This document shows positions 4,230-61,693 of a DNA stretch of 64,000 nucleotides, piece after piece (position 1 is the first letter of the stretch; the number at the start of each line of letters is the position of its first letter). The stretch is from an uncultured bacterium. Its GTDB lineage: Bacteria; Omnitrophota; Omnitrophia; Omnitrophales; Aquincolibacteriaceae. The notes below the pieces were generated by a model. The model saw nothing but the letters and a program-made list of their open reading frames with translations. It did no database searches and was not told the DNA's origin. The position numbers and the translations under genes are program-made. The stretch is taken from positions 88,133 through 152,132 of the forward strand of contig CAYZYT010000005.1 of NCBI GenBank assembly GCA_964482725.1, read 5' to 3'.

Positions 4230-7200
4230 TTTAAAAAATTCAGGATTTTTTGCGGTCAATTTAAAATGAATGTGGTTCTGGGAAGCGCCCGCATAAAGTC
4301 CGTTATAATCCAGCGTCGCATTGTCGAGCTTGGTCGAAAGAGCCGCCACATCCTGCAAATCTTCCGCGGTGATCGCTTGTCCTCTGCGATTGGCCAGGAC
4401 ACTGACGTCCGGCACGAGAAGGAACGAGCCCCGCGCTTCGATGGGACTGATGTTGTAATAGACCTTCCAGAGCCGTCCGTTCACTTCCACTTCGGCGAGA
4501 GCCTTCCGGTTAAAAAGATTCAAGGACTCCAATTTCTCGGTCCGGCTGCAGAACGAGCAAGTCGCTTCACTGTGCAATCCAAACTCTTTGGGTTTGGCCG
4601 TGAATCCAGGACGGAATTTCCGGTATCCGAGGTAACGGACTGTAAGATTTTGGATCTTCTTTTCATCCATGATGCCAGCCATGTCCTGTCCGGTTTTAAG
4701 ATCTTTCGCAAAATACTGCACATACCCTTTCCCGTCACGTTCCACAAAACGCAGACCATACTCGATTTGATCGCCGGTCTCCTCATCCATGCCAACGTTT
4801 TGCAGCACACCGTCGCGGACGGCTTGTATCCATGCCTCTGTCAGGTCCGTGGTACCGATCTTCACAGGATTCGCCCGCATTTCGTCAACCGAGATCATAG
4901 AAACGTCCCGCACTTCGGCGCGCACCGCGACAGGGCGTTCCGTGACAAATGCGAGACCGGCCGTTCCCACGGCATAAGGATTCCAGCTGGACTCCGCATC
5001 CACGAATTTCCCGTCCACGCGCTTGAAGGCGTCTTTACTGTTCGCGAGGAGGAATACCGATTTGATCGGATCGCCGGATTCACGCATCTTCCGGGCGATG
5101 ACTTCCTGGACTTCCTCGAAGCTGTAGCCTTTTCCGTCCAGCGCATATTTCTTGCCGGTCAGGACGACCGACACGATCTTGCCGCTCTGCGTGATTCCAA
5201 TCAGATTATGCGGGTACTTCGCAGGGGTCATCTTGACGTGAAGAATATTGTCTTGGATAAAATATTCCCCCGGCTTCATGTTGTATCCGGCGGTAGGCTC
5301 CACCGCACGGTACTGCCAGAGCCAATTCCCGAGAGCTCCCCTGACGATCGCTTGAGTCACCTGTTCCGGGGTCGCATTTTCGGCGATGTATTTCGCGAAC
5401 CGAGGATCCTTTTGTCTTTCCGCTGCCGAGAAATAAGGCTTGAGATCGATCTCGATATAACCATTCCGTCCCGCCACTTGCGTGATTTCCTTTGTCACTT
5501 GGTCACGGCCGAGCGCAGGCCCGTAAACCGGCGTTCCGTCCGCCTTGGGCGTCTCATCAAAGAACTGCGGGATGTTGTAAACCTGGAAGACGTCGGTCGT
5601 CTGCGCCATGATCTTATCCAAAGAAACCGTTTGGCCGTTTTCGATGAGGCGCTGCCCAAAGATCGCGAACTGGATCTCGTTGCTCAAATCATACTGCCGG
5701 AGAACATCGCTCGCGCGGTAAACGCGGGCTGTGGATTTTCCGGCATCGCGGACGAACTGGAGATCTTCCGAAGTCGCTTTTCCGGATTTCCAGTAAACGA
5801 ACATGCTGTAAGTCCGGGCCGCCACCGGTTCATCGGAAGGCGCGAGCAGCCGGCGCGACTTTCCGTCAAACGCCACGAACCAACCGTTATGGAAGAGATT
5901 GTGATAGGAATAGAAAGCCATCGTCTGCTTCGCAAGATCCAGCTCAGACAGGAGAGGGTTCTCGATAGACTCCCAAGGAATATTGGCCGCAAGCGACGTC
6001 GCGTACGGCTTGTCGCTCTGGTTCGCGTCCGCCAGGAAATGCAACTGGGTCGTCGCGGGATCATACACGTCAAACACCTGCGGGTACGTCTCAGGCGCAG
6101 CCGCCGCTTTCCGCGATTCGGAGCGCTGGGCATTGATCGTGGCCATTTCTTCGGCGGTCATGGGAACGACTTTGCCGAAGCTCGAAAGAAGCTTCCCGTC
6201 GATCATCGCCGGGCTGAGGTTGAAAATTTTCTCCCAGGCCGGCTGCTGGTCCTCAACCGCCTTAAGGTCCTTCGTCGGAGTGAAAATATTATCGGCGCCG
6301 TCCCGGACCCCGGCCACAAAGGCCTTCTTCCCGGGGATCAATCGGAACAACGGATTCTGCTGCATCTGTTCCGGATACGCCGCCACGACCTCTTTGCCGG
6401 TCACCGGGTCGCTCACTTTCTTTCCGGTCGTCGTGTAGGTCGGCAGTTCTTTCCACAACCCGCGAACGCGGTCCGCCAGATCCTTATCGGAAAGCGCCTC
6501 ATAATTCCGGAGCGCCTTGGCCGCCGTCTCGCGCCAATCCGCCTGCAAAAGGTCTTCAGGCGTCAGCACGCCGATCAGCGTCAGCAGCGCAGGGAGATAA
6601 ACATAATAATTGGCGGGATTGAAAGAATCATTCGCCGCCGCATCCTCAATGTAACTTTCCGCCTTAGTCCCCTTCGGCGCGTTCGGAGGAAGATCCTTCA
6701 AATGCTCCGCATCTTCGCGGAGATCGATATCCTGGGTCATCTTCCCGGTTTTTTCATCCCGGTAGTCTGCAATCACAGGGATCCCGCCCGCGTCATTCGG
6801 CTCTTTGGCGGAGATCTCTCCGATCACGCTCACGGGTCTTCCCGCCTTGATGGATTCCCACATCATCCCCAGGATCCTGACATTCGGACGCTGAGCCACA
6901 TTATCAATATTACCGATCGTCGCGATCACCTTGCCTTGCCGCAACGCATCCGCCAACACCGCGCGGTTCAGCAGGATCTGCTGGACATTGCTGCCATGGC
7001 CGACCCCTGACACCAGTGAAACCTCGCCGTTCGAGAACACCAGGGGCTTCATCGTCGCCTGATCCAGACGGTGCGACACTTCCTGGCGAATCAGCTTGTA
7101 ATGGCCTGCCCCGGCATCCGGCTGCTGCTCCAACAACCCGCGAATGATCGGGTCCGAAAGAAAACTGCTCGTAACCCAGATCGGCATCTGCTCGTTCAAA

Positions 7201-10200: not shown

Positions 10201-13200
10201 ACGATCTTGGCGATCCGGCGCGCCTCAACAGGCACTCTTTTATCCGCGGACCCCATGACGATCATCGCGTGAAAGTCCATCTCCGAAAGTTCCGAATCAC
10301 TGGCGACCGGCGTCCATGTGCCCGTCGTCGCGCTGTACGCCGCCCGCAATGCAAGCCCCTTCACAAGAGCCAAACCTTTCTCATTCGCGGCCGCCCGCTC
10401 CGCCGGCGTAAAAGTCCGAACCTCGGACCGAGCAACATTTACTGCAAATGATCCCTGCCAACTTTTGTTTTCCGAGCCAGTGAATTTAATCTCAGCGCCC
10501 GAGCCATCCAGATTTGATCCGTCTTCTTGCGTGGACTCTTTCCATCCAATTTGAATCTCATTCCCTTCGGGGACAAACGTGAGAGTCGGTTTACGGTCTT
10601 CCGCAAGCAGTTGTTCGATCTGAAGAAGTTTTGAATCCGGAATATTAAGCCACGCTACACGGTAATAAGGACCGTCCGAGAGGAAAGTACCCGCGCCATT
10701 TAGCGACGTCGGCAATCCGGCAATTTGCTTATCCGCAAATTTCACAACTTCCGCTTCAATAAAGCGAGCGGCATTTGGAAAACGGGTGAGTTTCCCTCCA
10801 AAAGTCCTCAGCCAAGCCATTCCATGCTTGATCCCCCAGCTTACACCGTAGATCGATGCAATAATTCCAATATCCATCGCCATATTAGAGAAAAATTCGA
10901 GAGGACTCCGCTCCCAAACAACACGCATTTGGTGGAACATTTGAGTGAACCCATTCTCATTTGCAAGGCCAAGCAGCGGAAGCGGAACGAATGACCGGAA
11001 CCCAAGAATATTCCAGCTAGGCCGCGGTTCCTGATCGTTATCCTCCGAACTTGTACTCTGCTCGGCTTGACGTTCTCTCTCAAGCCGCTCCGATTCTTCA
11101 CGCTCGGCGAGCTCTTTTGCTTCACGCGTAAGCATTTCTTTATATGCACTCACCGCATCTGCGGATCGCGGGTCTCCGATCTTCTCTAGTGCTGTAACGA
11201 CAGAATCGCTGACGAAACGATCCTTCAAAGCCGCCATCAAGGAAGGCACAGCATCGGTATCCCGCAGATCGCCAAGTGCATCAGCCGCTGCGCGACGAAC
11301 ATCGGGATACTTACTATTGAGCTGTTTCCCAAGATCCGAAAAAGCATTGAGCCCACGAAGCGCATGAATCGCAGAATCGCGAACATGTTCAAATTCATCC
11401 GACAACATCCCAACAAAAACCAGGGTCATCGACTTCTCTTTCATGTTTCCCAACACCTGCACAGCGAGAGCGCGAACATAAAAATCCTTGTCATTAAGAG
11501 TCTTGAGCAAAGCCGGCGCGGCGGGACTTCCGATCATTTGCAAATGCTTTGCCGCATCCGATTGAAACTTCGCTTGATGTAAACGCCACAAATACCAGCT
11601 GATCGGACTCGAAATACGCCAGACCGAAAAAACGATTAAACGAACGACAAGAAACGCTAAGATAAAAACAAAGATGCCTGTCACCCCGATGGTAAGCGTG
11701 GTCAATATCGGATGTGCAAGAAATTGATATCTGACCCAGTCCATCCCCCTCAAATCAAATTTACTCAAAGCTTCAAAAGCTTTATGTCTAACGTCTGGCC
11801 ATTGGTAGTCTGCTGCGACGGCCTGAAAGAGACCTGGGATAGCACGAGGATCTTTTAGCTCACCCAGAGCTTCAGCTGCATCATAAGAGACATCCAGATC
11901 ATTCGAATTATTCAAGGCGTCAATTAGTGCCGACACGACTCGCGGATCCTTCAATTGACCTAAGTCACCTAATGCTTCGAATGCAGCGAGACGCAAATTA
12001 TCATTCCGACTTCTTAAAGCAACGGTCAGGGCCGGAACGGCTCTCAAATCTTTCAGCTTACCAAGCGTGTTGGCGGCATAAACGCTAACGTCTGGGTTCG
12101 AATCCCCCAAAGCATCAATAAAGGCGTGCACATATTCCGGCGTTTTAAATGTCTCAAGAATTTTACGCGCAGTAACACGAACCCTAGTATGCCAATCATC
12201 TAAAGAATAGCCTCTTGAGAAAGGGATAAGTACCGGTACGACTCGCGGATCTTTCATTTTATCTAAAGCTTCTTCTACAGCGAGCCGCATATCAGTATCC
12301 CAAGTATTTAAGGCCTGGAACAGCGCCGGGACTGCTCTCAAATCTTTCAGCTCACCAAGCGTTCTGGCAGCATAAGAACTAACGGCCGGGTCCGAAGCCT
12401 CTAGATTTCTCATAGCCTCTTGAAACCTAGCCTCATTCTCTTTCGACAAAGCATTCAGGGGAGGAACTTGGGACGTCACCTGAACGATCGCGGAATTAGT
12501 TGCGGCAGGAACCATGTCCGACGCTTTAACGGAAACAGCCATCATTCCGACAACCGCCGCCAGCATCAATTTCTTCGCAACATTTCTTCTCAACTCCGAT
12601 CGAGCAGAAGGCTGACCTTCTTGCGAAGACTGGGCCGCAGGCCTCGGGGTAGCGTCGAATTCCTTTTGCAAAACCTCTATCTTGTCGACCACCGGCTTCC
12701 ACAACTTGGCGTCTCTTGCAACAAAAGGTTCCGACTTTTTTCCCAGTTTTTTTACCCCCGCGGCAAGCTTAACCAATTTTTCCAGGATCTCATTCTCCTC
12801 GTCCGTCGCCACGCCCTCCTGGGATCGCTTGCCCTTTGCCTTTTCCAAATCCTTAAGCAGTCGCGATTTTTCCCCCGCGATGTCATTCAACTGCGCCTCA
12901 GCCTTTTCTTTCGACTCTTTTTGCTCCTTCAGAAGCATGCCGGCTACTGCCATACGGACATCACTTGTATCTTCCTTGATCCTCAGGAGCTCATCGTTTG
13001 ACACGCCGGAAAGTTTTTTCCGCTGGACGAAATCCCACCCGAACACCCCGAGGAAGCCGAGAATGCGAACGGTATAGCTGGCGACCAGAAAAACAACCCA
13101 TATCATGATCCAAGCACTATTGCCTTGCAACCCAAGCTGAAAGAGCCCGGGAGCACCGTCCATGCCGCCAATACCGGAACCGGCCGTGATAAAGAAACTA

Positions 13201-25200: not shown

Positions 25201-28200
25201 ATGATCCGCTCGCGCTGGTCGATCCATGCCGCCACCGCCGCCGAAAGGCCCGCCTTGAGACCTTCATACTGACGTTTCAGGATGGCCACTTCCCCCGGAG
25301 CCAGGGACGCCATGCGGTCAAAGCTGTCCAAGGTATCTTCTGCGGAAATAACGCCGACCTGCATATCGATGACTTCACGCTGGATATTTTCTTCCGTGGC
25401 CGTCTGATCGATCCCGATCACTCGCGAGGCAAAATTCCCGACAATCGGAATGTGATCTAAAAGACGGTCGCCCCACCAATAAGCAGGGCCGATAATGGGC
25501 ATCACACCCGGTTTCGTCGAACTGGTCCCGATCTCGTCATAGCCCAGCGCAAGACTGCCCTTGGCTCCAAAGCGCCACTTGGCGCCCATCAGATATTCCC
25601 GGGCTTTTTGACCGTGGAGCTGAATCAGATCGAGTTTACGAAGAATCTCGGTGACCGGGGAGATCGTGGATATGGAGCTGAGCTTCTCGCCCGCGCCGTG
25701 TATTTGCTGAAAAAGTTCTTCTTGTTCCTGGAGATATTTCACCGCGAAGTTCAGACGTTTTTTGAGTTCCAGGGCGCTCAGCGTGCCCTCCTTCGCATCC
25801 TTGTAGATCTTCTCCATCTCATTTTTAACGAAATCAGACATCTTGGCGGCGTCGACGGAGGCATGAAGGAATTGCCGGGTCACCTCCTGCAACCTATTGA
25901 GGCGCATGGCCCTGTCTTTCTTGACCGCGTCTTCTCCCGTAGCCTCCGATTTCCAATTGACCACTTCCTGAAGGCCCGTCTGAACCTTGATCATATCTTT
26001 GGAAAGCTTATCCAGCTTCAGAACCCGCGCCGAATTCTCCGGAGACATTTTCCCGAACCAAGGACTCAGCTCATCACGAAGCACCTTGATCTGCGCCACG
26101 GTCGCACCGACCGAGGCTGAAAACGCCTGAATCCCGGCGGTATCCTTGACCTTGCCGTCGGCATCCAAAAAGAGCCAAGGTGAAGTAACGACCAGTTTTT
26201 CCGCCTCGGCGAAACCTTTGATCTTTGTCTGGGCATCGATACGGGCCTGGACCGGGCCTTTCAGCTTTGCAAGGTCCGCATCCGTGAAGACTGCCGGATT
26301 CCCGCGGCGAGAAAAAACCAATCCCCGGTCGCCCTTTTCACCCAGCCATCCAAGATGCTTGACGATCTGATCAGCGTTTTGACCGAGTGCGATAAGCTGG
26401 TCGATCTCCTTGAAAACACTCTCGGCACTGGCAGCATGCTTCGCACCCAGCACCCCGGTGACAGACGCCCGCAGTGCTTTACCGGACTGTTCCTCCACAG
26501 CGGCTTTCTGTACACCCAAAGTCTCGGTCCCTTCAAGAAAGTCAACGGCGTTCGTGTCCTTCCCGAACGTGTAGATCTTGAACTGGAGCATGACTTTCGA
26601 AAGATTGTTCTGGGTCGCTTCAAGCTTGGCTTCCGCGATATCAAGATTCGCCTGCGCGTCCTTCATCTTCATCTGGGCTGCCCAGGAATAACCACCGACT
26701 TGGGGGGCCAGCCTTTTTTCAAATTTCGGCGAAATGGGTCTCTCGTCCCGTTCCGCGGCGGCAGCTTTTTCGGCTTTCTTTAATTCCTCATTACGAAGTT
26801 CGACTTCTCTCTCTGCAAGACCCACAAGTTTTGCGCCGAGCTGAATGTTATGGATCCATCCGCGCATGGTCGCGCTCAGATCCGTCGCCGTGCGTTGGAC
26901 TAACTTATCCGCGGAATCTCCGGCAAGATCCTTCTGGTTCTGGCGGGCCCAATAAGCCGTATCCGTCACGAGCGTAAGGCTCGGCCCGATATTCGCTCCC
27001 CGTTTCCAGCCTCTCTCGATCATGGTAACGTCTTTGCCGTTCCGGTCGGTGTAGCCCCAGCCGTATCCGCCGCCGAATGAGAATTTCATCCAACCCAGCA
27101 GGTTGTAGTTCAACCTGTCTTCGCCGGCCTGAAGGATCGCTTCATCGAGGCGGGGCTTTGCGGAAGCAAGGAGTTTTTGAAAATCAGGGTTGGCAGAATT
27201 CACATCTCCCTTAAACTTTGTTGCAAAGGCAAGCGCTTCATTCAAATTATTGCCCGCGACAGGGGTCTTGTCCTTGGCTCCCGCTTTCGGAGGTACGGCC
27301 CAGGACCGGAGGGTTTCTTCCCGAGCAGCTTTCAGCGCTGCCTGGATGTCCGCGACGCGTTTGGGGAACTGTTTTTCAAGATCGTTCACCGTCTTCGTGA
27401 TCTGTCCGTCCAGACCCGCGTACTGTTGCTTCCGGCTCTCGAGAAGGCTCACGGCCAATTCGGCGCCCTTGACGTCTTCGGTGATCTGTTCCTGATCGAT
27501 ATAAGCTTGGGCAAGATTGAGTCCCCGATTGGAAGCGCCGGACGGGTCACTCATGATCTGATTGATCACTTCGTCTTTCGCGCCCATCGCGCTTTTGACC
27601 TTGGCCTCATAGCTCTTTGCGGCTGCAAGGGATTGATCCAGGAGAAGTTGATCTTCATAGAAGGCACGCGCTTTCGACGAAAATTTTGCAAGCTCAGTCG
27701 CGATCGCCGCCTCCTCTAAGATCTTATCCTTATTCCGTTCCTTATAAAAAAGGCCGTGAAGGGACCAGCTAAAATCGATCCGGAGGATATCGACGGAAAA
27801 CTCATTGCCCAGATTCCAAACGCCGAGCGTGCGCAGAAGGTCCCAGCTAGCCTGACCGGCGACCGTCCCATCCACACCGCTCAATACGCTTTTTGACGCG
27901 ACTTTTTGATTGACCAGACTTTTGGCCCGAGCCATCGAGGCGGTGACCCGGTCCACCGGCATGCCTTCTTCCTTTTCGAAAACCTCCTTGATCGAATCCA
28001 GCGTAATCCCGTCAAACGGACTTTTCTCGCTCGAATCTTTTGCTTTGTCCGAATCTTTCGCCGCCGGAATGTTGATGGCATCTTCCGTGCCGCGACCTGT
28101 CAGCTGGACGATCTCCCGGCTGATAAGCTTGCGCGAGGTTTTGAGCACTACGATATCGCTTTCCACGGTTTTGATCGCCGCCGCGATCTGCCTCTGGGTC

Positions 28201-31200
28201 TGGGTGTTGTAGTCCTGACCGCGGGTCTTCATCTGATCGAGAAGATTCTGCGCCAGTTTAGTTTTCAGGGCTTCTTTCGCGGTGATCTTCGCGTTAAAGA
28301 AAGCGATCTGGAAGAATTTCTGGACGATCGCATCAAAGGTCTCCCCCTGAGCGATCTCAAGATCCGCTTTGGCGGTATCCGACTCCGCCTTCGCGACGGC
28401 CCGCTGACGGATCCACGCAAGGTTGAGAACTTCGACGCGCAAAACAAGCATGGCGTCCCAGTCCCTTTCCTTCAAGGTCTCCCGGGCCAGCGTCGTGCCG
28501 TTCTTGCTGTCATAGCAATCAAGACGGGACAGGTACGTCAAAAGCGCGGCGTCATAGGGATTCGTCAGGACAATGTCGCGACCGAGCCGTTTCTCCGCCT
28601 CAGCCTTCATCTTCACAAAGGAATCCATGATCTCGGGAAGCGTCGCCCCGCCGAAGATGTCCTTGGCATTGATCCCTGAATAGAACGGATTGTCGTAGCG
28701 CTCGGCCCAGTAGGAGGCAAACCCCATCATCTCCGCGATCGGACGGCTATAATTCGCCTGATCCGACGGATTGCTATGAGCGGTAAGATAGGCGGGACTC
28801 CGCTCCGACACCGGCACGGCCCGCAACTCCGGGGTCAAATTCCAGAAACCGCTATCGCGTCCGCCGATCGCATTGATATTCGCCGCAAACCGGCCAGTGG
28901 TAATGTCGGTCGATTTCAGATGAATGATGGTGCCGGCATCGACCTCCTTATAATTTTCAAAATGGTAAGTGTCAGCCTCCGGGTCGCCGTTCCCGATGAT
29001 CGCATACACCGTCGGATTGCCGTTTTCATCCCACGCGACCGGCGAATAGGTTTCCGTATAATCCGGCGCGTAATTCGCCTGCTTCAGGGTGACATTGCCG
29101 CTGCCGTCATCGACCCAGCTATAATCGAATTTAACGCTTGAACCTTCGGAAGTCCCGTTGTGCCCCTGATATAAAGGAAGGTCACGCGGCGTAGCGTTAT
29201 AGGAAATCGACAGGTCCAGCGTGATCAGCCGGCGGTACCAGCTCCAGGAATCATACGTCTCGTCCATGATCTTTTTCTCGATCCCGGCTTGCTTAACGAG
29301 GTGCCCGTTCTTGACCCCTTCCGCGACCCAATTTTTGACTTCCGGGCCCACGGCTTCTTTTCCGGGGATCGAAAATCCACGGTAAATGTCAACGGTGTTC
29401 TTGGCATGCGACACAATGGCCGCAGTCAGTTTCTCAATAGTAGCTTTGTCCGCCGTGACGCCTTTCGCTTTTTCAGCAATGATCGCCGCCTGGAGTTTCC
29501 GGATCTCGTCATTTTCGGGAGCAAGCTTGGCATCCATGGCCTTCTGGTTGGCCAGCACCGCAGCCTGCGTTTCTTTTTGAATGTCCTGCAAAGCGGCTTC
29601 CTGCGCAGCGATCTTCTTTCCGAGCTCCTTTTTAGCTTTTTCGTCCTTCGCCTGTCCGAGCTGGGACTTGAGATCCGTCAGCGACTTGTCTTCTTTCGAA
29701 AATTCGTCGCGGAGCTCCACCATTTTCGTGATCGTCGGCGGGAGCTTCACTTCCTGAGTTGCGGAAGCTTTGACTTCGGCTTTGACAGCCTGTTTTTCTG
29801 CCGGCGCGGGTGTGGCAGCTTTCTCCGGAGCCGCGACCGTTTTCGGCGTTTCCTTCGGAGCTTCCGGGGCCAGTTTTTCCGCGGCAACGGTCACGACGGC
29901 CGCGGCGGTGCCTGAAACGGCGGCCACAGAGGCATTCACAGCGATCGTTTTGACGGATTCGGTTTTGGAAGCTTCGACTTCCGGAGCCGCCACAGAGGCT
30001 GTTTTGAGGCGAAGGTCGTTGAGCTTCTGTTCGGCTTGGCGAAGCGCGTTAATGTGAGTCACGAGATTCTTCATGTTCGCGGGATCCGGCATCTTTTCGG
30101 ACATACCTTCTTTGACCGTAGTCCGACGCAGGACGCGCAACAAACCGTTCTTCGAACCTTCGGTCTTAAGCGCTGAAATACTTTTCAGTATTCCGTCCAG
30201 ATCGACCGGCTTTTCGGCCCGGACACCACGGAAGATCACATCACGGACGGCGTCTTTGGCATCGATCCTCCCGGCGAAGGTCAGCTGCAGATAGCTATCC
30301 AACCCTTCGATCGCCAGCACCCGTTCAGCTTTGGCAGTACGGATCTCCGTATCAACGGCTGCCCGCGACTTTGCCGCCTCTTGCGCGGCTTGGCGCTTTT
30401 GAGCTTTGGCCGCCTCGGCCGCTTTTTGGGCTGCGATACGATCCTCTTTAACTTTTTGAGCCGCAATCTTTTCCGCGGCGGCTTTTTCTTCGGCTTCGAT
30501 CGCGGCAACCGCATCCCGAGCCGCCTTATTCATGACTAGCGTCGGTTCCGTAGAAGGCTTCAGAGGAGTGCCTTCGGCTGCGAGTTTTGCTTCTTCACCG
30601 AGTTCTTCAGCGGGTGCCTTCGGAGCTTCTTTGACGGTCATCGGAGCTACCGGAACCACCACGGCAGGCTTGACTTCCGCGACCGCGGGTGCCGGAAACG
30701 CTTTCGCAAGATCGGCCGAGGTTTTTTTCATAACAGCCGCGGCTTCCTCAAGTTCTTTCTTGGATTCCGCGACCGTGACCTCAGCCTTCGCAAGTCTTTC
30801 CTTGGAGGATTCGACAGCTACGGCCGGCGCGGGAACGGCTTTGACTTGAACTTTCGCCGTTTCCACGACAGGAGCTACTGTGACTTCGGGTGTCACGACC
30901 GGAGCTTTAGGGGCTTCAACGGGAGCTTTGACAACGGGTTGAGCGGCAGGCGGTGTTAGAACCACCAACGCATTTTCCATAGGAGCTTCGGCGGCTTGAG
31001 ATGAAGAAACAAGCAATGCCCCAAGACCCGCAAATCCCGCCTCCACCCCAGATTTTACTTTCGCCCATTTGGAAGCAGACGGACTCACCCCAACGGGCCC
31101 GGCAACCGTCTGCTGATCCAGGCCTAATTGTTTTTTTGCCTCCGCTAAGATCCTGGCCGTTTCGACACCGGGCCCATAACGATCCATCGTGTCTTGTTCG

Positions 31201-34200
31201 ATTTCGGAATACTGGGCTCGTCGCATTTCAAGCGTCATTTTACTTATCGAGATTGCCGACGAAGCGTATTGCTCGGCTTGTGCGATCTGGTGATGAATGG
31301 ATGAGGGGTTCTGTAAATCTTGCGTTGAGGGCCGATCTGCGGGTGCTTGACGCATAAGAGCGGCCAGACTCTGAACAGCTTGGTGAACCCCGGAATCCTT
31401 GGAACCGTCGGAAGCTTGAACGAATTGTCTCAGCTGAGGTAAATAATAGGTCGGGACATCTTTGAAAAGCTCCGCATTCGGAACATGCATCGCCGCAAAT
31501 GCAGGCGATGTAAAATGGATAATTTCTGATTGAAGGTCAAATCCTGTCCTGGTAGTCAACTCCGCCATTCCCGAATGAAATACGCGGCCGTGCACTCCGA
31601 GGAGATCCTCTTCGACGAACAAAGCCGGTTTTACAAGCGTCCAGTCGACGAGCGACTGCAGGCCATACTCCTGCACAAAATCACTATTGGCCACCACCTG
31701 AACGAACCCGCCCTCCATACCTCCTTCAGGACCTGTCTGGAGACCGACAAAGCTGCCGAGTTCACCTCCAAGGGCATAGGCGGAAAATGTCCCTAAAGTA
31801 ACGCTCCACCCGTAATCCTCCAAGGTCGGCGCCAAACGAAGGGCTTTGAAGAATATCTTAAGCTCCTCTCCCACACTGAGCTTGAGTTTTTGTGAAACCG
31901 GCACAGCTTCCTGAGGAGGCCCCCGCTGATTGAGGTTTTGGCCAAGAATAATTTCAAAAAAGTAACGATCGCTATCACTCGCGAAAAGGATCGCGCCTTG
32001 GTTGTAAAGTTCCCGGATCTGTTGAAGATCGGCCGGGCTTGTCTTCGGATCCTGCATCAACCGATAAAAAACATCCGGGGTCAGGAGCCACGCGTAACTG
32101 TTCAATGACTTCATATTCTGTTTCGCTTCATGCTGGGCAAACATATCCGTGAGGATCTCCTTCACGCGGCCGGCTCCGAGCATTTCAACAATTCGCTTGC
32201 TCGCAAAATACCCGGCTACTTTCTGACGATACCGCAGCCAATGAAGAATAACCTGGGTCGCGAACATCGTTCCAAGCACGCCCACGGTCGCGGAGGCCGC
32301 AAGGCCGGAAATGGCCGTCACAAGCATGACGTTCGGTCCCGCCATCGCCGTCAGGAACGCGAAAAATCCGGCAAGGATCGGAATGGACGGCAAAAAGACA
32401 CCGAGCGTCAATCCGACGATAAAGGAAACCGTGCTCAATGCCATGCGGTTATTCGTGAACTGAAGGATCGGGATCACGATCAAGGCCATGGGGATCCAAA
32501 GCACCAGACGAACCGTGGCCAGAACGCCGTCGATCAGATCGATGCCGAGACTCGCCAGCTTCCACGCGATCGGGTTTTTGATCTTATCCTGAAATCCGAA
32601 AGAACCCAGCCCGTATTTATAAGTATGAACGATCGCTTTCCCCCACGACCATCTCAGAAAACCGTTATACACAAATTTCTGGAGCGCTTTTGCGTTCTGG
32701 TCGCTCCAAGTCGAATACGTCACGCCAAAAAACGGCTTCTCCTTGACTGAGGCAAGTGCACCCGCCAGTTTCTGGGCCGAAACGCCTACGGAAAGACGAC
32801 GAAATTCATATTTCGCGATCCCCCGAACGAGCCCCAGCCACTCTTTGGGATTCTTAAAAAGAAGCGCGGCACCTTTAAGCGACAAAAGCTTGCCCAAGTG
32901 CTCGCCCGACAAGAGTCCCAAATGACGGTTAATGCTTTTTTCCACAAGCTCGGGATAAAAGGCGTAGAACGCGTGGAAAGCAACCCTTAAAAGCGCAATA
33001 GTCACAATGACGAGATAAACTTTCATGGCAATCAGACCGACCACCGGCACCAAAAAGCTCGCAAGTACGCCAAGCCCCGCGACCAACCCCAATTTCATAC
33101 CGATGCTTTTCAGCCGTGCGACCCATACAGCTTTCCGGCTCTGTGCCGTACCTTTTTCAGCCGACTTCATCTTTTCGCGGTTGCGCGCCTGCTGATCTTG
33201 GCTTACCACGGCTTCATGCATCATCTCCGCAAGACGGATCATTTGGGCCTTATCCAGACTGTTCCATTCGACGCCGTTCTGCTTGAGCAGCGCATCAAGA
33301 AGCGCCGCATTCCCTTTGAAATGATTGTTCACGAGGATATCGCGAACCCGTTGACGGACCTCTTCGGTCGACAGCGCTTTCAAATACTCGACCACCGGCA
33401 TCCGGTAAGACGTTTCGGGCTGAGCTTCTGCAGCTTTGATCAGATCCGCGAGCGACGCTGCCACGGCTGGCTTCACTTCCGGTTTCTGTTCGACAACGAC
33501 CGCCGGCCTGGCGGCAGCTTGTTCCGCGGCGGCCTGCTTGGCGGCAAGCGCCTGGTCGATCTCAACGCCGACATTTGCGCCGATCGGTCCGGAAGGTCCG
33601 GCCGCGATCTTGACCGCCCGAGCGGCTAGCCGCTCATCAATGAGTTTCTGAAAAGTTTCTTTCGAATGGGTGATGGTGAATGCATTGATCGGCACGCCCA
33701 GATCCCGAGCCTCGATCAGAGTCGGCATTTTCGAATCAACCGTACGGATTTTGTCGGGAGTCAAAAAGGAAAGGATGCGGAGAACCACGGGAAGACTGAG
33801 AACCCCCTTTGCGGAGATCTTCTCCATTTCATTCATTCTAAGGTCAAAACCAAGGTTCAGGAGGAGCCGCCGATAGGCTTGATACTCCCTGTTTTCAGAA
33901 TCCTCCGCATTTAAAATGAGCTCGGCCGTAAGACCCTGGGGCAGTTCAAGACCTTGATCCTGCAAATACGCATTCAGCCTCAAGAGGTTGGTCTTGATGA
34001 GAGCCAGCTCGGATTTCTGGCGTTCCTGCTCGGATTTGATTTGCGCGGCCTTGATCGCCTCGTCGTATACCTCGCCAAACTTCGGGCCGAAGGGCTCAGG
34101 CTGAGCCGGGACTGTTTTCTGCTCAATCACTCCGGATGTGATCTCGATCGGCCTCTCATGGGTCGTTTCTTTTGCAACAAGCTCCGGTTGAGCTTTCATT

Positions 34201-36323
34201 TGCGCCAGAACTTCTTCGGGCATCAATATGCCCTTGGCCATGACATAAACCATGCTCTGATCGCCGAATTTCACAACAGTTCGACCAGCCCCCTGGATCG
34301 ACACCTCCCTGCGACGATCGTCCGTGCTGCGTTCACTGAACACGGGAATTTCTCCGTTCCCATCGCGGCTACCCACCACCCAAAGATTCCACTTTTTGTC
34401 AAAATAGGACCGCTTTAACCCTGTGCTCGCGCCCTCAACAAATGTTTGTCCTTCCTGGATCAATACCCCTTTACCTGCACGAAGCATTTCACCAAAAGTT
34501 ACCGAGGGGGCCACGTTTTTGTTCCTAAAAATACTCTGCAGTGCCGTAGCGCGAACTTCGGCTCTGGCAAACTCGAGTCTTTCGCCATCTACGCGAAGTT
34601 CTGCACGGGTCGGAGTCCCCAACTTCGCGGCCAACTGGAAGCGCGGGTCATTCAGGACCGGTGACTTGGGCACAAGGAACGCTTCCGAAAGGACTTTTTC
34701 GATCGGGAGCGGGGTTTCGCGCAGAGCGGCATCATAGAGGGCGGACTCTTTGGCTTTATTGATCGCCTTGGTGATGCGCGGGGCGACTACTATATAAGAG
34801 AGGTCCTTCTCGCGAAGGTACTTCTCGATCCCGGGCGTATGGAAACCGCCGGTGACGATGGCGGATATCTTCTGCCCGGTGGCAAAGGTTTTCTCAACCG
34901 CTCGCTCGATCAGCACCTGATCGCGTTCGAGAGCGGCTTTATAGAAGCGCTCCACACGCGGTAAGTCCTGATCGAGTGTCTTCACTTGGGACGGCAATCC
35001 GTAGGTGAAGTGGTACTTCGACATGAGCGGGTTGAGAAAACTTACGAAAGTTTCCGACTTAAACTCGTCCTGGTAGGTGTAATAGAACTCGGCGTCCTGC
35101 TTCGTGAGCGTAAAGTCGAACATCTTGCAATAGATGTCATAGATCCGGAGGATATGGTCAAGCTGGACCTGTTCGGGGGTGGTGAAGAGCTTGTTCTTGA
35201 CGGTCTTTTCAAGGAACTCGATCTCGTCAAAGATCGAAACGTCGATCGCGTCATAGAGCTTCATGTATTTAACATAGGCAAGAACATTGGCGTATTTGGT
35301 GTTGAGGTCTTCTCCATGGGTTTGAGCCACGCTCATGCCCTGGATCTCATCCTGGAGATAGCCGTAATAGGCAGCGCGTTTCATCTTCTTCATGCGGAAG
35401 TGAACGGTGTTGGTGAGGAAACGGGAAAGCTTCTCGCGCGAGAGGACGCGCTTCATGTCATTGATGAGATCGTCAGTCTCTTTTTCGGCCTTGTCAAAAT
35501 CCACCTGCTTTTCAAGGTCCACGAGCTCGATCAGGGAATGCATGCCGGGATATTCATCGAGCGCGATATTGTGCTTACGGGCCAACTCCACAAGATAACG
35601 GACATAAGAGACGAGTTCCGGTCCGCCTTCCTGGAACGCGGCGCGGCGGCGAGTCAGCTCGCGCATCTCTTCGGGAAATACGAAGCGGCTCACCCCTTGC
35701 AAGACTTTATCAAGTTCCGCGAGGATCTTTTCATCGCGATCCTTGAACTGGAGCGCGTCCACGTAGGCTTTGCGGTTTTCTTCGTAGAGGTCTTTATCTT
35801 CCACGCCAAAAAGCGTCATCGCCGGTTTTTCAACAATGGCGAGATATTCGGGGCCGGTGAGGCGACCTTCTTTCAGAAAATAATCGGCGACGTTCCGGCG
35901 GGCGTCTTTATTCGGGAAAAAGGAAAAAAGTTCGGTGTAGAGCTCACCCGAGGCGCCTTCGAGGTTCACCAGCTTAAGCTGATATTTTTCCGAGAAGTAG
36001 CGGATGATATTGGCGATATTGCGCTGGGCTTCTTCGTTGATGTGCGCGTCCTGGATCGCGAGGACGATCGTGTCGCGACTCCCTTTGAAAGTCGACTTGA
36101 TCGTTCCGTAGCTATCCGGAAGATCCGGCCGGTCGATCAGGGAAAGAACGGCATTGGCTTTGAAGGTTTCTACCGGGGTGAGGTTCGAAGGAGTCGAGGC
36201 GGCAGCATAGGCTTTGTTGATCCCACCATCCCAAACGATCGAGGTAAAGGTAAACACACAGACCGTCAAAAACGCAACGGTCCTAAGCCAAGGCTTAAAG
36301 CTTTGTGTTTGCCAGTTGATCAT
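4230..36323 (-). CDS. Giant ORF of about 32.1 kb (~10,697 aa): a membrane-anchored multidomain giant protein of unknown function. It has TM blocks, coiled-coil/low-complexity linkers, HEAT repeats and C-terminal nucleotide-sugar enzyme-like domains.
   Basis: ATG at 36323..36321 is preceded by GGAGAGGA (36334-36341); TAA lies 9 codons upstream in frame. Spot-checked minus-strand codons near 30059, 25019, 21059, 20039, 17999, 9059, 7562, 5699 and the stop TAA 4232..4230 all have codon-first base = 2 mod 3 with protein-like translation. The N-terminus reads MINWQTQSFKPWLRTVAFLTVCVFTFTSIVW. Long plus-strand ORFs across the region look like antisense shadows. No internal stop was found by manual translation, but not every codon could be machine-verified. 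Confidence 0.62.
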
Positions 36324-36426
36324 CGGATTGCCGTCCTCTCCATAAGCCGATTAGAACTGCTCTTGTACTACCAAGCTCTTGAGTCACCATTAAAACTTAT
36401 TTCAACATCTTATTAACCTCAATAGA

Positions 36427-36455
36427 AATATACACAATGGAAGCTCTACAGTCAA
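36427..36455 (-). promoter_or_regulatory. Candidate sigma70 promoter for the giant ORF: -35 TTGACT, 17-nt spacer, -10 TATATT with a TG-type extension.
   Basis: The minus strand reads ttgact-gtagagcttccattgtg-tatatt. The -35 is the reverse complement of 36450-36455 and the -10 of 36427-36432. This gives a 5' leader of roughly 100 nt before ATG 36323. Confidence 0.4.
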
Positions 36456-36903
36456 GGAAACCTAAAAAAATTTTAATGATGTAACCCCTTACCAATCAAC
36501 TGGTTGTGTTGCTCCTTAAAAAAATACCAACTTTTCTTAGATTCCATAGAATTTCTCATAGCATTAGTTGTCAGCTAAAATGGCCTGTTTTTCAACAAAA
36601 AACAGGCTTCGAGATAAAGCTATTTATCGTGTTAATAAAAAGTTTTTGAAAATAAGTTTCTTTTAATCCACGAAGAAGACGATACATAATGATCCCCTGC
36701 AAAAACTACAATCGAAAATTTTCGGCAAAAATTTCCATAGAAAAAAAATCGCGAGCATTAAATTCAAAAAACCCCGAGAAAACCCCACACAAATCCAAGA
36801 AGAGACCCAGAGATTAATCCCCAACATTAATGCCTGGAGATTTTTTTAGGAGTCGAATAATCACGGAAACCGGAAGCTCTTGCTCTGGTCTGAGAATTAA
36901 AAC

Positions 36904-37332: not shown

Positions 37333-37405
37333 TGGACCTGAGGAGAATTGAACTCCTGGCCTCTGCAATGCGAATGCAGCGCTCTACCAGCTGAGCTACA
37401 GGCCC
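37333..37405 (-). tRNA. tRNA-Ala (anticodon CGC)
   Basis: Minus-strand sequence is GGGCCTGTAGCTCAGCTGGTAGAGCGCTGCATTCGCATTGCAGAGGCCAGGAGTTCAATTCTCCTCAGGTCCA. It forms a cloverleaf with a 7-bp acceptor, the G3:U70 Ala identity pair, anticodon loop TTCGCAT and a TTCAATT T-loop. CCA is not encoded. Confidence 0.85.
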
Positions 37406-44570: not shown

Positions 44571-44740
44571 TTCTCCGTTCCCAAAATATAAAAAATTAAT
44601 TGGACTAGTCCTGGCAAACTTTTATGAAAATAAAATTGAGGCCAGGGCATGGGTGGATTATCGGCAGAAAAGACTATTCCCCTTATAGTCGCAAGAACAA
44701 AGATCAGGGGAATCCCCAGAGGTCTTCAAAGAAATCCAAG

Positions 44741-44776
44741 AGAGGAAAAGAAAAAAGGAGCGCCGAAGGCGCTCCT
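44741..44776 (-). terminator. Intrinsic terminator downstream of the PilZ gene
   Basis: Stem GGAGCGCC / GGCGCTCC (44757-44764 and 44769-44776) with a GAAG loop. The minus strand is followed by ttttttcttttcc. Confidence 0.5.
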
Positions 44777-46031: not shown

Positions 46032-46045
46032 CGGGCGAAAAAGGG

Positions 46046-61691: not shown

Positions 61692-61693
61692 AA

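What the first reader, a model, noticed from the sequence alone, without database searches (positions are those of the whole stretch)
4230..36323. Single giant ORF of ~32 kb (~10,700 aa) on the minus strand, missing from the supplied ORF track
From ATG 36323 (GGAGAGGA RBS, TAA 9 codons upstream) the minus-strand frame with codon-first base = 2 mod 3 gives continuous, protein-like translation at every position I checked, down to an in-frame TAA at 4232..4230. Those positions include about 30059, 25019, 21059, 20039, 17999, 9059, 7562 and 5699. I first thought there was a stop at 7520-7522; that was a miscount of an A7 run, and the frame reads straight through. All long plus-strand ORFs in this interval, such as 3528..7010 and 21738..23120, are Arg/Leu-rich antisense shadows. 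The minus-strand ORFs listed in the track here are in other frames. Bacterial genes of this size are rare, and giant genes have been described mainly in a few lineages. The product combines a signal/TM start, several polytopic TM blocks, about 1.5 kb of Ala/Pro/Val/Lys/Glu low complexity, kilobases of coiled-coil-like sequence, HEAT repeats and C-terminal enzyme-like modules. That architecture is not that of a classical adhesin, RTX toxin or NRPS/PKS and appears undescribed.
Basis: partly seen in the sequence, partly recalled or inferred. Interest (0 to 1): 0.95.

Follow-up and report, generated by a model that had tools for sequence, protein, structure and literature searches.

The report
Omnitrophota giant membrane multi-enzyme gene
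This is a real single gene of more than 36 kb (at least 12,107 codons, cut off by the window edge) from an uncultivated Omnitrophota bacterium; giant genes are already well documented in that phylum, so it is a new example of a known oddity, although its family shows a conserved head domain and end motif that I did not find described in the papers I checked.

Summary
From ATG 36323 the frame has no stop at 4232..4230 (that codon is AAA) and stays open to window base 1. That gives at least 12,107 codons. Six relatives all stop 17 residues past the homologous point, so the true length is probably about 12,124 aa. All 79 windows of 300 codons score as coding in this frame.

The closest relatives are Omnitrophota proteins, and two or three lie at the same chromosomal locus. 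Giant Omnitrophota genes, including membrane-anchored multi-enzyme ones, are already published. "Architecture undescribed" is therefore not supported.

Anatomy, N to C:
- signal peptide or anchor
- a roughly 510-aa head domain
- three transmembrane blocks
- about 4,250 aa with no Pfam hit
- a HEAT block
- sugar-nucleotide-type enzyme modules (DUF218, UDPGP, GalT/HIT-like, SDR epimerase)

Additional results from the follow-up:
- The head looks like a TIKI/ChaN/erythromycin-esterase-type hydrolase and marks more than 10,000 protein clusters.
- 68% of sampled family members end in [S/A][L/A/V].
- At this locus the head and tail are conserved while the cargo is swapped.
- Cysteine is about ten-fold depleted.

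Function remains inferred.

The parts
1..36323 (-). Giant ORF. It starts at ATG 36323 and is open to the window edge: 12,107 complete codons, with about 17 codons plus the stop inferred to lie beyond base 1.
   Evidence: no stop. (coding in frame in 79 of 79 windows). (six relatives end ...GKSA-stop 17 aa after the homologous point).
36427..36455 (-). Sigma-70-like promoter candidate, TTGACT-17-TATATT, about 100 nt upstream of the ATG. It is conserved in the two orthologous loci.
   Evidence: 10 of 12 match. (alignment with L001 and L002).
36334..36341 (-). Ribosome-binding site GGAGAGGA, with a 10-nt spacer to the ATG. The in-frame TAA lies at 36353..36351.
   Evidence: GAGAGGACGGCAATCCG is identical in L001 and L002.
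37333..37405 (-). tRNA-Ala(CGC) just upstream of the giant gene. It occupies the same position in both orthologous loci.
36204..36323 (-). N-terminal signal peptide or signal anchor (aa 1-40). The hydrophobic core is aa 12-30, and there is an AYA|AA-type site near aa 40.
   Evidence: hydropathy. (sequence). The cleavage site was read by eye and not predicted with a dedicated tool.
34599..36140 (-). Conserved head domain (aa 62-575). It has a TIKI/ChaN/TraB/erythromycin-esterase-like alpha/beta core split by an all-helical insertion of about 300 aa. Invariant residues are D92, H94, E122, R467 and H495.
32241..33107 (-). Transmembrane block 1 (aa ~1073-1361), about 5 hydrophobic helices.
29724..30983 (-). 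Low-complexity region rich in Ala, Val, Lys, Glu and Pro (aa ~1781-2200).
   Evidence: A 22%, V 12%, K 11%, E 10%, P 8%.
16959..29723 (-). Middle region with no Pfam hit (aa ~2201-6455). It has no Pfam, NCBIfam or PDB sequence match and is collinear only with orthologue P0001, at about 30-33% identity.
   Evidence: no hits. (P0001 HSPs).
16299..16958 (-). Transmembrane block 2 (aa ~6456-6675), 4-5 helices.
14424..16298 (-). Conserved soluble module between TM blocks 2 and 3 (aa ~6676-7300). It carries the motifs GGRKP, GEDGT, NGEDEIV and DDR. Its fold is unresolved.
   Evidence: shared with P0013, P0020, P0022, P0121, P0125. (model failed). (no PDB hit).
13029..14423 (-). Transmembrane block 3 (aa ~7301-7765), about 7-8 helices arranged as hairpins. 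K/R-rich flanks lie on the same side as the preceding module.
10455..12686 (-). HEAT-repeat block (aa ~7880-8623). HEAT repeats span about aa 7960-8400, with flanking or internal TM helices near aa 7920-7938 and 8214-8232. GC3 here is 0.40-0.49 against about 0.65 elsewhere. The block is absent at this position in relative P0121.
   Evidence: HEAT_2 E=1e-50... (GC3). (P0121 jumps from 7762 to 8624).
9915..10268 (-). DUF218 domain (aa 8686-8803).
   Evidence: 32.8 bits; gathering score 27.6.
6789..7403 (-). UDPGP-like domain, UTP-sugar-1-phosphate uridylyltransferase family (aa 9641-9845).
   Evidence: 25.2 bits; gathering score 22. (20.5 bits in the long query).
5094..5264 (-). Weak NAGPA (phosphodiester glycosidase)-like stretch (aa ~10354-10410).
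   Evidence: 22.9 bits, below the gathering score of 25.
4254..4559 (-). GalT/HIT-branch-like nucleotidyltransferase/phosphorylase candidate (aa ~10589-10690). It has CSFC at aa 10589-10592 and NHIHF about 95 aa later.
   Evidence: DUF4922 E=0.0066; Ap4A_phos_N E=0.027; both weak. (Cys positions). (PF26216 GDPGP1_C, weak, in P0121).
990..1970 (-). NAD-dependent epimerase/dehydratase (SDR) domain (aa ~11452-11778).
   Evidence: Epimerase 39.1 bits, gathering score 20.9; NAD_binding_4 26.9 bits.
3..626 (-). Conserved C-terminal tail domain (aa 11900-12107, truncated). It is 48-68% identical to the tails of P0004, P0121 and L004-L007.

Best explanation
The feature is one intact protein-coding gene on the chromosome of an uncultivated Omnitrophota bacterium.

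Shown:
- The open, in-frame coding signal throughout.
- A promoter-like site and RBS that are conserved in two orthologous loci.
- Positional orthologues in independent assemblies that are also single very long ORFs.
- The domain layout: signal peptide/anchor, about 510-aa head, TM block, low-complexity linker, about 4,250 aa with no Pfam hit, TM block, conserved soluble module, TM block, HEAT block, DUF218, UDPGP-like, GalT/HIT-like, SDR epimerase, conserved tail.

Inferred:
- The product is a Sec-targeted protein anchored in the cytoplasmic membrane at many points. It acts as a scaffold that holds sugar-nucleotide enzymes and HEAT protein-binding surfaces at the envelope.
- By the positive-inside rule, the enzyme third and the module between TM blocks 2 and 3 face the cytoplasm, and the first HEAT stretch faces outward.
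- The most likely job is to make, activate or remodel envelope or surface glycans at fixed membrane sites. This fits the host-attached, possibly predatory lifestyle proposed for Omnitrophota giant proteins.
- The head is a TIKI-type hydrolase-like domain that retains a (D/E)xH...E...R...H catalytic set.
- The head and a conserved C-terminal end motif bracket a cargo that is exchanged between close relatives. I therefore take the head and end to serve biogenesis (export, processing or docking) and the middle to be the variable payload.
For: Gene reality:
-.
- The start is supported by orthologues beginning MISWQT... and by the conserved promoter/RBS.

Taxon and kind:
- 183 relatives, almost all labelled Omnitrophota where a source name is given.
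- Literature.

One ORF in independent assemblies:
- P0001 is collinear over about 7,000 aa and is cut only by its contig end.
- P0004 is complete at 7,941 aa.
- P0121 and L004-L007 are open through all the sequence held.

Same locus:
- Neighbours are 86-92% identical, and tRNA-Ala(CGC) lies upstream in all three loci.
- By ORF sizes, the genes downstream of L004 look like those downstream of L002.

End of the gene.

Domains.

Head domain:
-.
- The spacing matches RRSP: H94 to E122 is 28 residues (RRSP 28), and R467 to H495 is 28 residues (RRSP 29).
- PF04187 is weak in 2 of 15 members.

End motif: 172 of 252 family proteins end in [SA][LAV], against 9-16 expected. Among ordinary neighbouring genes the counts are 1 of 24 and 1 of 18.

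Topology hints.
Against: - No experimental or read-level data were available, so transcription, translation and integrity of the product are unproven here.
- The last roughly 17 codons and the stop lie outside the window.
- Topology rests on a crude hydropathy and K/R count, and it is contradictory for the head and the long middle region.
- About ten-fold cysteine depletion would fit an extracytoplasmic location better than a cytoplasmic one.
- The enzyme assignments are weak to marginal. UDPGP is 25 bits. The NAGPA and GalT/HIT-like hits are below threshold.
- Two thirds of the protein have no assignable fold.
- The structure prediction of the conserved membrane module failed (pLDDT 34).
- The flanking genes are housekeeping genes. 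They are not the secretion, pilus or glycoside-hydrolase genes reported around the largest giants.
Confidence: 0.8

Rival explanations
1. The long frame is an artefact: an assembly chimera, or several adjacent ordinary genes fused by sequencing errors that removed the stops.
For: The window is a single unverified sequence. GC3 varies along the ORF, with a trough of 0.40-0.49 at aa 7880-8620, which could mark a junction.
Against: - There is no stop in 12,107 codons, with a chance of about 1e-230.
- The same frame is the best coding frame in 79 of 79 windows.
- There are no repeats that could mis-join an assembly.
- Independent assemblies carry single ORFs across the same junctions. P0001 is collinear with aa 1-6998, P0121 with aa 7035-12104, P0022 with aa 5093-7775, and P0004 is complete with the same head and tail.
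Confidence: 0.03
2. It is a polyprotein. The giant precursor is inserted in the membrane and then cut, by its own TIKI-type head or by other proteases, into separate enzymes and membrane proteins. The functional units would then be ordinary-sized proteins.
For: - The head keeps the catalytic residues of TIKI-family endopeptidases and esterases.
- The modules are separated by linkers and low-complexity stretches.
- Modules are present or absent as units between relatives.
- West-Roberts et al. also raise cleavage, by C39/S8 domains.
Against: - No cleavage sites or repeated junction motifs were seen.
- The head is probably on the other side of the membrane from most modules if it follows a cleaved signal peptide.
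- TIKI-superfamily members include non-protease esterases and binding proteins such as ChaN and PMT.
- No proteomic evidence is available.
Confidence: 0.2
3. It is mainly an extracellular surface coat or attack protein for attachment to host cells and degradation of their envelope. This is the role proposed for the Velamenicoccus archaeovorus giant protein and the 'Archaeovorins'. Under this reading most of the mass would lie outside the cell.
For: - An N-terminal signal sequence.
- Strong cysteine depletion, 0.07% against 0.73% in the neighbours, which is typical of exported proteins.
- West-Roberts et al. report HEAT repeats in predicted extracellular parts of Archaeovorins.
- PilZ genes lie nearby, as noted for other giant genes.
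- The fast-evolving, swappable cargo fits a host-interaction arms race.
Against: - There are no adhesin, lectin, dockerin, glycoside-hydrolase or peptidase Pfam domains.
- The recognisable enzymes use cytoplasmic cofactors (UTP, NAD).
- The K/R distribution places the C-terminal third on the cytoplasmic side.
- No secretion or pilus genes are present in the 28 kb of flank seen.
Confidence: 0.3

Closest known systems
Omnitrophota very long proteins, 'multi-enzyme metabolic cluster' class (Nielsen & Lui 2026, bioRxiv 10.64898/2026.06.07.730766)
   Same: - At least 10 kaa and of Omnitrophota origin.
- Signal peptide plus many TM helices.
- Several different enzyme Pfams with none dominating.
- Sugar-metabolism content, HEAT scaffolding and HIT-like content.
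- No recent DNA tandem repeats.
   Different: - At about 12 kaa it sits at the short end of that catalogue.
- It has very few recognisable Pfams (5-6), and two thirds of it have no Pfam hit.
- Its flanks are housekeeping genes, not secretion, pilus or GH genes.
- That paper does not mention the head domain or the C-terminal end motif described here.
'Archaeovorin'-type giant proteins and the 39,678-aa Velamenicoccus archaeovorus protein (West-Roberts et al. 2023, bioRxiv 10.1101/2023.11.21.568195; Seymour et al. 2023, PMC10066038)
   Same: - Same phylum.
- Numerous TM helices, HEAT repeats and enzyme modules.
- An N-terminal region with no identifiable domain.
- PilZ genes nearby.
- Poorly conserved interior.
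   Different: - It is much shorter than their threshold of more than 30,000 aa.
- No SecA_DEAD, C39/S8 peptidase, glycosyl-transferase, glycosyl-hydrolase, methyltransferase or NUDIX Pfam hit was found here.
TIKI/TraB/ChaN/erythromycin-esterase superfamily (e.g. ChaN 2G5G, EreC 6XCQ, RRSP of MARTX toxins 5W6L; PMC6254334)
   Same: This applies to the head domain only.
- It has an invariant (D)xH...E...R...H set in the same order and spacing as the RRSP 2His/2Glu set plus conserved Arg.
   Different: - The first acidic residue is Asp, not Glu.
- A helical insertion of about 300 aa splits the core.
- No Pfam or NCBIfam model recognises it beyond weak PF04187 hits.
- Foldseek is not significant.
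- It always sits at the N-terminus of very long membrane proteins.
MARTX and other modular giant toxins (conserved ends, exchangeable internal cargo)
   Same: This is a resemblance in logic only. The conserved N- and C-terminal parts bracket a cargo that differs between close relatives at the same locus. A TIKI-type domain occurs in both.
   Different: - No RTX repeats, no cysteine protease domain and no toxin effector domains.
- The cargo is metabolic enzymes, HEAT repeats and polytopic membrane blocks.
- There is an N-terminal Sec-type signal rather than type I secretion features.
- The MARTX architecture was recalled from my own knowledge and was not tested beyond Pfam.
Classical bacterial giants: repeat adhesins (Bap/LapA/SiiE type), RTX toxins, NRPS/PKS
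   Same: Size class only (more than 10,000 aa).
   Different: - No Ig-like, cadherin or RTX repeats.
- No condensation, adenylation, thiolation or KS/AT/ACP domains.
- No internal repeats at all by self-BLAST.

Membership tests
Omnitrophota very long proteins (>=10 kaa), multi-enzyme class | Single ORF of at least 10,000 codons | tested here: met
   12,107 open codons, coding in frame throughout.
Omnitrophota very long proteins (>=10 kaa), multi-enzyme class | Encoded in an Omnitrophota genome | tested here: met
   Nearly all of the 183 relatives that carry a source name are labelled Omnitrophota/Omnitrophica. Syntenic loci come from GCA_043821445.1 and JGI Ga0265297, with neighbours 86-92% identical. 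No marker-gene phylogeny was run.
Omnitrophota very long proteins (>=10 kaa), multi-enzyme class | Signal peptide and/or transmembrane helices | tested here: met
   An N-terminal hydrophobic segment plus about 18-25 hydrophobic helices in three blocks, by Kyte-Doolittle scan. DeepTMHMM was not available.
Omnitrophota very long proteins (>=10 kaa), multi-enzyme class | Many distinct Pfam families, none dominating by copy number | tested here: met
   HEAT, DUF218, UDPGP and Epimerase, plus weak NAGPA and GalT/HIT-like hits. No internal repeats. The number of families is low.
Archaeovorin-type giant proteins (West-Roberts et al. 2023) | Length above 30,000 aa (gene >90 kb) | tested here: not met
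   About 12.1 kaa.
Archaeovorin-type giant proteins (West-Roberts et al. 2023) | Divergent SecA_DEAD / SecA preprotein-binding domains | tested here: not met
   No such Pfam hit in any segment at E<=0.01, or E<=1 in the sub-segment scans. Very divergent copies could be missed.
Archaeovorin-type giant proteins (West-Roberts et al. 2023) | Glycosyl transferases/hydrolases, methyltransferases, peptidases, NUDIX; HEAT repeats frequent | tested here: inconclusive
   HEAT is present at E=1e-50. None of the listed enzyme families was detected. Other sugar-nucleotide enzymes are present instead.
TIKI/TraB/ChaN/erythromycin-esterase superfamily (head domain) | Alpha/beta core with a central parallel beta-sheet flanked by helices | tested here: met
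   - Model pLDDT 84.
TIKI/TraB/ChaN/erythromycin-esterase superfamily (head domain) | 2His/2Glu catalytic set on the core strands | tested here: inconclusive
   H94, E122 and H495 are invariant in 15 diverse members, with RRSP-like spacing. The first Glu is replaced by the invariant D92. Spatial clustering in the model could not be inspected.
TIKI/TraB/ChaN/erythromycin-esterase superfamily (head domain) | Conserved basic residue near the active site | tested here: met
   R467 is invariant and lies 28 residues before H495. In RRSP, R4001 lies 29 residues before H4030.
TIKI/TraB/ChaN/erythromycin-esterase superfamily (head domain) | Recognition by a family profile (e.g. Pfam PF04187 ChaN, PF01963 TraB) | tested here: not met
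   The window's own head gives no hit. PF04187 appears only weakly (best E=0.0048) in 2 of 15 aligned members. A profile search against PDB sequences gave nothing relevant.
Repeat adhesins / RTX toxins / NRPS-PKS | Tandem Ig-like/cadherin or RTX repeats; or C-A-T / KS-AT-ACP modules | tested here: not met
   No such Pfam hits. No internal repeats and no tandem DNA repeats.
UDP-sugar pyrophosphorylase family (Pfam UDPGP PF01704) module | Score above Pfam gathering threshold | tested here: met
   25.2 bits against a threshold of 22 when aa 9600-10080 is scanned alone, and 20.5 bits in the 4,107-aa query. The match is marginal and catalytic residues were not checked.
NAD-dependent epimerase/dehydratase (SDR, PF01370) module | Score above Pfam gathering threshold | tested here: met
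   39.1 bits against a threshold of 20.9. Relative P0121 is named accordingly by NCBI.

The most novel reading that the evidence does not exclude
The roughly 510-aa TIKI-like head and the conserved C-terminal end motif may be the two ends of a dedicated, so far undescribed biogenesis system for very long membrane proteins. The end motif is a beta-like stretch plus an amphipathic helix finishing in [K/R/W]-[S/A]-[L/A/V]-COOH.

The family has more than 10,000 clusters at 50% identity, mainly in Omnitrophota. In it, almost any cargo (kinases, glycolytic enzymes, AAA ATPases, sugar-nucleotide enzymes, HEAT arrays) is inserted between the same head and end.

The head would recognise, cut or dock the C-terminal motif, giving self-processing, head-to-tail chaining or sorting.

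The existence of the family and of both conserved ends is shown here. Their functional coupling is speculation.
Probability: 0.2. Interest if true: 0.8.

Novelty: new member of a known kind. Interest (0 to 1): 0.4.

Why it matters
The giant gene itself adds one more example to a phenomenon already catalogued in thousands of cases, so on its own it changes little.

Its value is as a compact, non-repetitive and nearly complete case with positional orthologues. It shows that such genes can keep their two ends and their chromosomal site while exchanging thousands of residues of cargo between close relatives.

It also exposes two handles that the papers I read do not mention: a hydrolase-like head domain shared by more than 10,000 protein clusters, and a conserved C-terminal end motif. 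If these are functional partners, they offer a concrete and testable entry point into an open question: how bacteria make, insert and use proteins of 10,000 to 150,000 residues.

Tried and rejected
- **Exact-match search for the source contig.** Searches in genome contigs and metagenome contigs found nothing. The exact lookup of the window's LepA also found nothing. The missing C-terminus therefore had to be inferred from relatives.
- **Whole-protein homology query.** The protein database returned no hit longer than 7,941 aa, so true giant relatives may be invisible to it.
- **Genome-contig scan with the last 708 aa.** No relatives found.
- **Homology search with the tail alignment A3.** No hits, not even the known P0004 and P0121. 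This is probably a candidate-cap artefact and is uninformative.
- **Structure prediction of aa 6600-7780.** I wanted to test by-eye GT2-synthase-like motifs. The prediction failed (pLDDT 33.8, 5-sequence alignment). Its profile found nothing in the PDB. I therefore make no glycosyltransferase claim.
- **AFDB50 fold search.** The library was not available.
- **Foldseek against the PDB for the head.** Not significant. The weak alpha-pore-forming-toxin and coiled-coil hits to the helical insertion (probability below 0.1) were rejected as noise.
- **Pfam on ten sub-segments of aa 570-6460.** Only sub-threshold noise. NCBIfam on aa 1-8000 found nothing.
- **Second HIT-like motif.** One seen by eye near aa 9060 (LHMHV) has no tool support (protein 2) and is not claimed.
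- **Full topology model.** The positive-inside rule gives contradictory answers for the head and the middle region. Only the C-terminal part is interpreted.
- **ParE toxin downstream of P0004.** It also ends in GKSA. I inspected it and judged it a coincidence.

Full report
**1. Observation**

It does not end there either. The supposed TAA at 4232..4230 is a miscount in a T/A run: the sequence reads GAA TTT TTT AAA GTG (E-F-F-K-V).

The frame stays open to window base 1, giving 12,107 complete codons. The ORF is therefore truncated by the window and is not a closed 10,697-codon gene. This also explains its absence from the ORF track, because the ORF lister omits ORFs that run off either end of the source.

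The start is as described: GGAGAGGA at 36341..36334, ATG at 36323, and an in-frame TAA at 36353..36351.

**2. Is it real coding sequence?**

- With a random-codon stop probability of 0.043, 12,107 open codons have a chance of about 1e-230.
- A codon-usage log-likelihood model trained on eleven neighbouring genes picks the ORF's own frame as best in 79 of 79 windows of 300 codons.
- The mean score is 0.224 per codon, against 0.241 for the training genes.
- The long plus-strand ORFs score 0.06-0.13 and are Arg/Leu-rich.
- Tandem Repeats Finder finds nothing in 1..36400, and self-BLAST finds no internal repeats. Length is therefore not created by repeats or repeat-driven misassembly.

**3. Whose gene, and is it one gene elsewhere?**

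The first 5,000 residues find 183 proteins. Almost all of those that carry a source name are labelled Candidatus Omnitrophota/Omnitrophica, and those listed are 2.7-7.9 kaa long.

Two relatives sit at the same chromosomal locus:
- L001 (JGI Ga0265297_10002121) carries P0001.
- L002 (GCA_043821445.1) carries P0004.
- Both have the same upstream genes: abhydrolase, patatin-cNMP, two PilZ, YajQ and SPOR, plus acyl-CoA ligase and thiolase in L001.
- Both have the same tRNA-Ala(CGC) immediately upstream of the giant gene.
- Both have an alignable promoter-like TTGACT-17-TATATT and an identical RBS region.

The neighbours are 86-92% identical in protein sequence, so these are close relatives.

- P0001 is collinear with the window protein over aa 1-923 (64%), 2178-4533 (33%) and 4640-6998 (30%). 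It is cut only by its contig end.
- P0004 is complete at 7,941 aa. It shares only the first roughly 900 aa (59%) and the last roughly 200 aa (48.5%).
- P0121 (L003) is a contig-start-truncated piece, with its frame open to base 2. It is collinear with aa 7035-7762, 8624-9230 and 10114-12104 at 41-50%.

Independent assemblies therefore carry single ORFs across the junctions in question. This argues strongly against chimerism.

**4. Where does it end?**

P0004, P0121 and four metagenome loci (L004-L007) found with the tail alignment all finish with ...VTVTGSRT[K/R]VS.AF.F..[A/G]E.L.A.I.AA...GKSA-stop. The stop lies exactly 17 residues after the point homologous to the window edge, where the window reads ...VTVTGSRTKLSIAFQYSAA. 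In L004-L007 the frame is open through the whole 10-kb upstream flank.

The ORFs downstream of L004 (547, 146, 110, 553 and 314 aa) have similar sizes and order to those downstream of L002 (NAD synthase, a small ORF, RsfS, ArgRS, MiaA). I did not annotate them. If they are the same genes, L004 is another positional orthologue. Its tail is 68% identical, but its preceding 3,300 aa hardly align.

I infer a true length of about 12,124 aa.

**5. Anatomy** (aa i corresponds to window 36323-3(i-1))

| Residues (aa) | Feature |
|---|---|
| 1-40 | Signal peptide or anchor |
| 62-575 | Conserved head |
| ~1073-1361 | TM block 1 |
| ~1781-2200 | Ala/Val/Lys/Glu/Pro low complexity |
| ~2201-6455 | No hit in Pfam, NCBIfam or PDB sequences |
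| ~6456-6675 | TM block 2 |
| ~6676-7300 | Soluble module conserved in six relatives |
| ~7301-7765 | TM block 3 |
| ~7960-8400 | HEAT repeats (HEAT_2 E=1e-50), interrupted by a TM helix at 8214-8232 |
| 8686-8803 | DUF218 (32.8 bits) |
| 9641-9845 | UDPGP (25.2 bits, threshold 22) |
| ~10354-10410 | Weak NAGPA |
| ~10589-10690 | GalT/HIT-like candidate: CSFC, then NHIHF about 95 aa later; weak DUF4922/Ap4A_phos_N. P0121 has weak GDPGP1_C |
| 11452-11778 | SDR epimerase (39.1 bits) |
| 11900-12107+ | Conserved tail |

The recognisable enzymes all deal with nucleotide sugars.

**6. The head domain**

All 120 listed relatives share only aa ~20-570 of the query. In the hits the domain begins within the first roughly 150 residues.

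An alignment of 15 diverse members (28-40% identical to the query) has these invariant residues, in giant-protein numbering: D92, H94, Q100, E122-G123, G173, E175, R467 and G492-G-F-H495-T.

AlphaFold2 gives a confident model (pLDDT 84.2, pTM 0.74). It shows an alpha/beta core split by an all-helical insertion of about 300 aa.

- two proteins deposited as 'succinoglycan biosynthesis protein', which I believe to be erythromycin-esterase-like (2rad, 2qgm);
- ChaN (2g5g);
- a TraB-family protein (8bqs_DQ);
- EreC (6xcq);
- HopBA1 (5t09);
- the RRSP endopeptidase of MARTX (5w6l).

The head has D92-x-H94, E122 (28 residues after the His; RRSP 28), R467 and H495 (28 residues after the Arg; RRSP 29).

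Caveats:
- The first acidic residue is Asp.
- Foldseek is not significant, although its highest-probability hits are again EreC and HopBA1.
- Pfam sees only weak PF04187 in 2 of 15 members.

I put the TIKI assignment at about 0.7.

A profile search of 1.84 billion cluster representatives finds 10,115 proteins at E<=1e-3 and 7,032 at E<=1e-30. Among the 150 listed, the domain is almost always at residues ~50-570 of proteins up to 7.9 kaa long. In L003 a second long gene, 470 nt after the first, begins with the same signal anchor and head. Neither giant-gene preprint mentions such a domain.

**7. The C-terminal end**

Of the 252 family proteins fetched, 172 end in [S/A][L/A/V]. Composition predicts 9.4, and an internal-position control gives 16. 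The two independent subsets give 80 of 120 and 88 of 126. Ordinary genes in the window and in L002 give 1 of 24 and 1 of 18.

Position -5 is V/I/L in 126 of the 172, and position -3 is mostly R, W or K. The preceding roughly 35 residues look like a beta stretch plus an amphipathic helix. Many of the exceptions are probably contig-truncated, which I did not check.

The family thus has conserved ends and a free middle. At this particular locus, close relatives with 86-92% identical neighbours share the head (59-64%) and the tail (48-68%). Their cargo is only about 30% identical or is unalignable, and their lengths differ (7,941 aa against about 12,124 aa).

One exchange is visible inside the window. 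The HEAT/TM block at aa ~7880-8620 has GC3 of 0.40-0.49, against about 0.65 around it. It is exactly the part missing between P0121's matches to aa 7762 and 8624.

**8. Mechanism**

Shown: the gene, its domains, its family and its locus behaviour.

Inferred: a Sec-targeted, multiply membrane-anchored scaffold.

In TM block 3 and around the HEAT block, the K/R counts flanking each helix alternate cleanly. This places the aa 6676-7300 module and everything after aa 8232 (the enzymes) on the K/R-rich, presumably cytoplasmic side. It places HEAT stretch 7960-8200 on the other side. That fits enzymes that need UTP and NAD.

For the head and the long middle region the same rule is contradictory, and the ten-fold cysteine depletion hints at exposure outside the cytoplasm. 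The location of half the protein is therefore open.

My best reading is a membrane-tethered glycan or sugar-nucleotide workstation whose ends serve biogenesis. A polyprotein reading and a surface-coat/attack reading remain alive.

**9. Comparison and novelty**

West-Roberts et al. describe TM-rich giants with HEAT repeats and enzymes, and nearby PilZ genes.

Nielsen & Lui report:
- 5,761 proteins of at least 10 kaa across their in-house and NCBI HQ genomes;
- 94% of their 916-protein catalogue with a TM helix or signal peptide;
- a 'multi-enzyme metabolic cluster' class with sugar-metabolism modules, whose 147-kaa example also has HIT content and HEAT scaffolding.

This gene fits that class. 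It fails the Archaeovorin criteria on size and on SecA_DEAD. It is a new member of a known kind.

The head family, the end motif, the head/tail-bracketed cargo exchange and the cysteine depletion are, as far as the papers I could read show, not described. They lift the interest to moderate.

Noticed in passing
window 3-626 (-) and beyond the left edge; P0001-P0252; L004-L007: Proteins of the head-domain family share a C-terminal end motif. 172 of 252 end in [S/A][L/A/V]-COOH, most often RSL, WSV, KSA, RAL or KSL. Composition predicts about 9, and ordinary neighbouring genes give 1 of 24 and 1 of 18. Position -5 is hydrophobic, position -3 is R/W/K, and a conserved strand-plus-helix of about 35 aa lies upstream. 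This could be a sorting, docking or processing signal. I did not find it in the three Omnitrophota papers read.
   Followed up: partly
window 1-36323 (-), whole product: The giant protein has 8 Cys in 12,107 residues (0.07%), against 0.73% in 20 neighbouring genes. Relatives show 0.00-0.14%. His is also halved (1.12% against 2.12%). Two of the eight Cys form the CSFC of the GalT/HIT-like module.
   Followed up: partly
window ~10455-12686 (-), aa ~7880-8620: There is a sharp GC3 trough (0.40-0.49 against about 0.65) over the HEAT/TM block. GC3 returns to 0.65 at aa ~8626. This coincides with the segment absent between relative P0121's matches to aa 7762 and 8624. It looks like a compositionally foreign module insertion. 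Shallower troughs occur at aa ~1500-1800, ~6400-6900 and ~10650-11100.
   Followed up: partly
L003 17002-26534 (+): 470 nt downstream of the stop of the P0121 giant gene lies a second gene of at least 3,495 aa. It starts with a signal anchor and the same head domain and also carries HEAT repeats. Head-family genes therefore occur as tandem paralogues.
   Followed up: partly
window 36427-36500 (-); L001 ~9850-9990; L002 ~9850-9990: The last roughly 170 nt before the giant gene's ATG include TTACATCATTAAAA, a T-run, TTGACT-17-TATATT and the RBS. This stretch is conserved in the three loci, although the rest of the intergenic region is only 56-64% identical. Terminator-like hairpins lie at 37198-37163 (after the tRNA) and 36607-36583.
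   Followed up: partly
window 42531-46414 (-): A cluster of second-messenger-related genes lies 6-10 kb upstream of the giant gene and is syntenic in L001 and L002. It comprises a cNMP-binding patatin-like phospholipase, two small PilZ proteins (44872-45288 and 46046-46414) and YajQ (45528-46031). West-Roberts et al. note PilZ genes next to many giant genes.
   Followed up: no
window 57682-59601 (-) and 59635-62878 (-): This stretch holds a BatD-domain protein (639 aa), then a ParB_N-like protein, a TPR/Peptidase_MA protein and an M48 peptidase. It is an ordinary-looking envelope/protease neighbourhood, and the ORFs at 60567-61787 and 61694-62878 overlap by about 90 nt.
   Followed up: no
protein database used by the search for homologous proteins: No hit returned was longer than 7,941 aa, although Omnitrophota proteins of 10-147 kaa are published. 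The search with the tail alignment also failed to return P0004 and P0121, which are known to be in the database. Homology counts for giant proteins from this tool are therefore lower bounds.
   Followed up: no
L002 34169-34447 (+): The 92-aa ParE-family toxin just downstream of the P0004 giant gene also ends in ...YGKSA. I judged this a coincidence after reading the sequence.
   Followed up: yes
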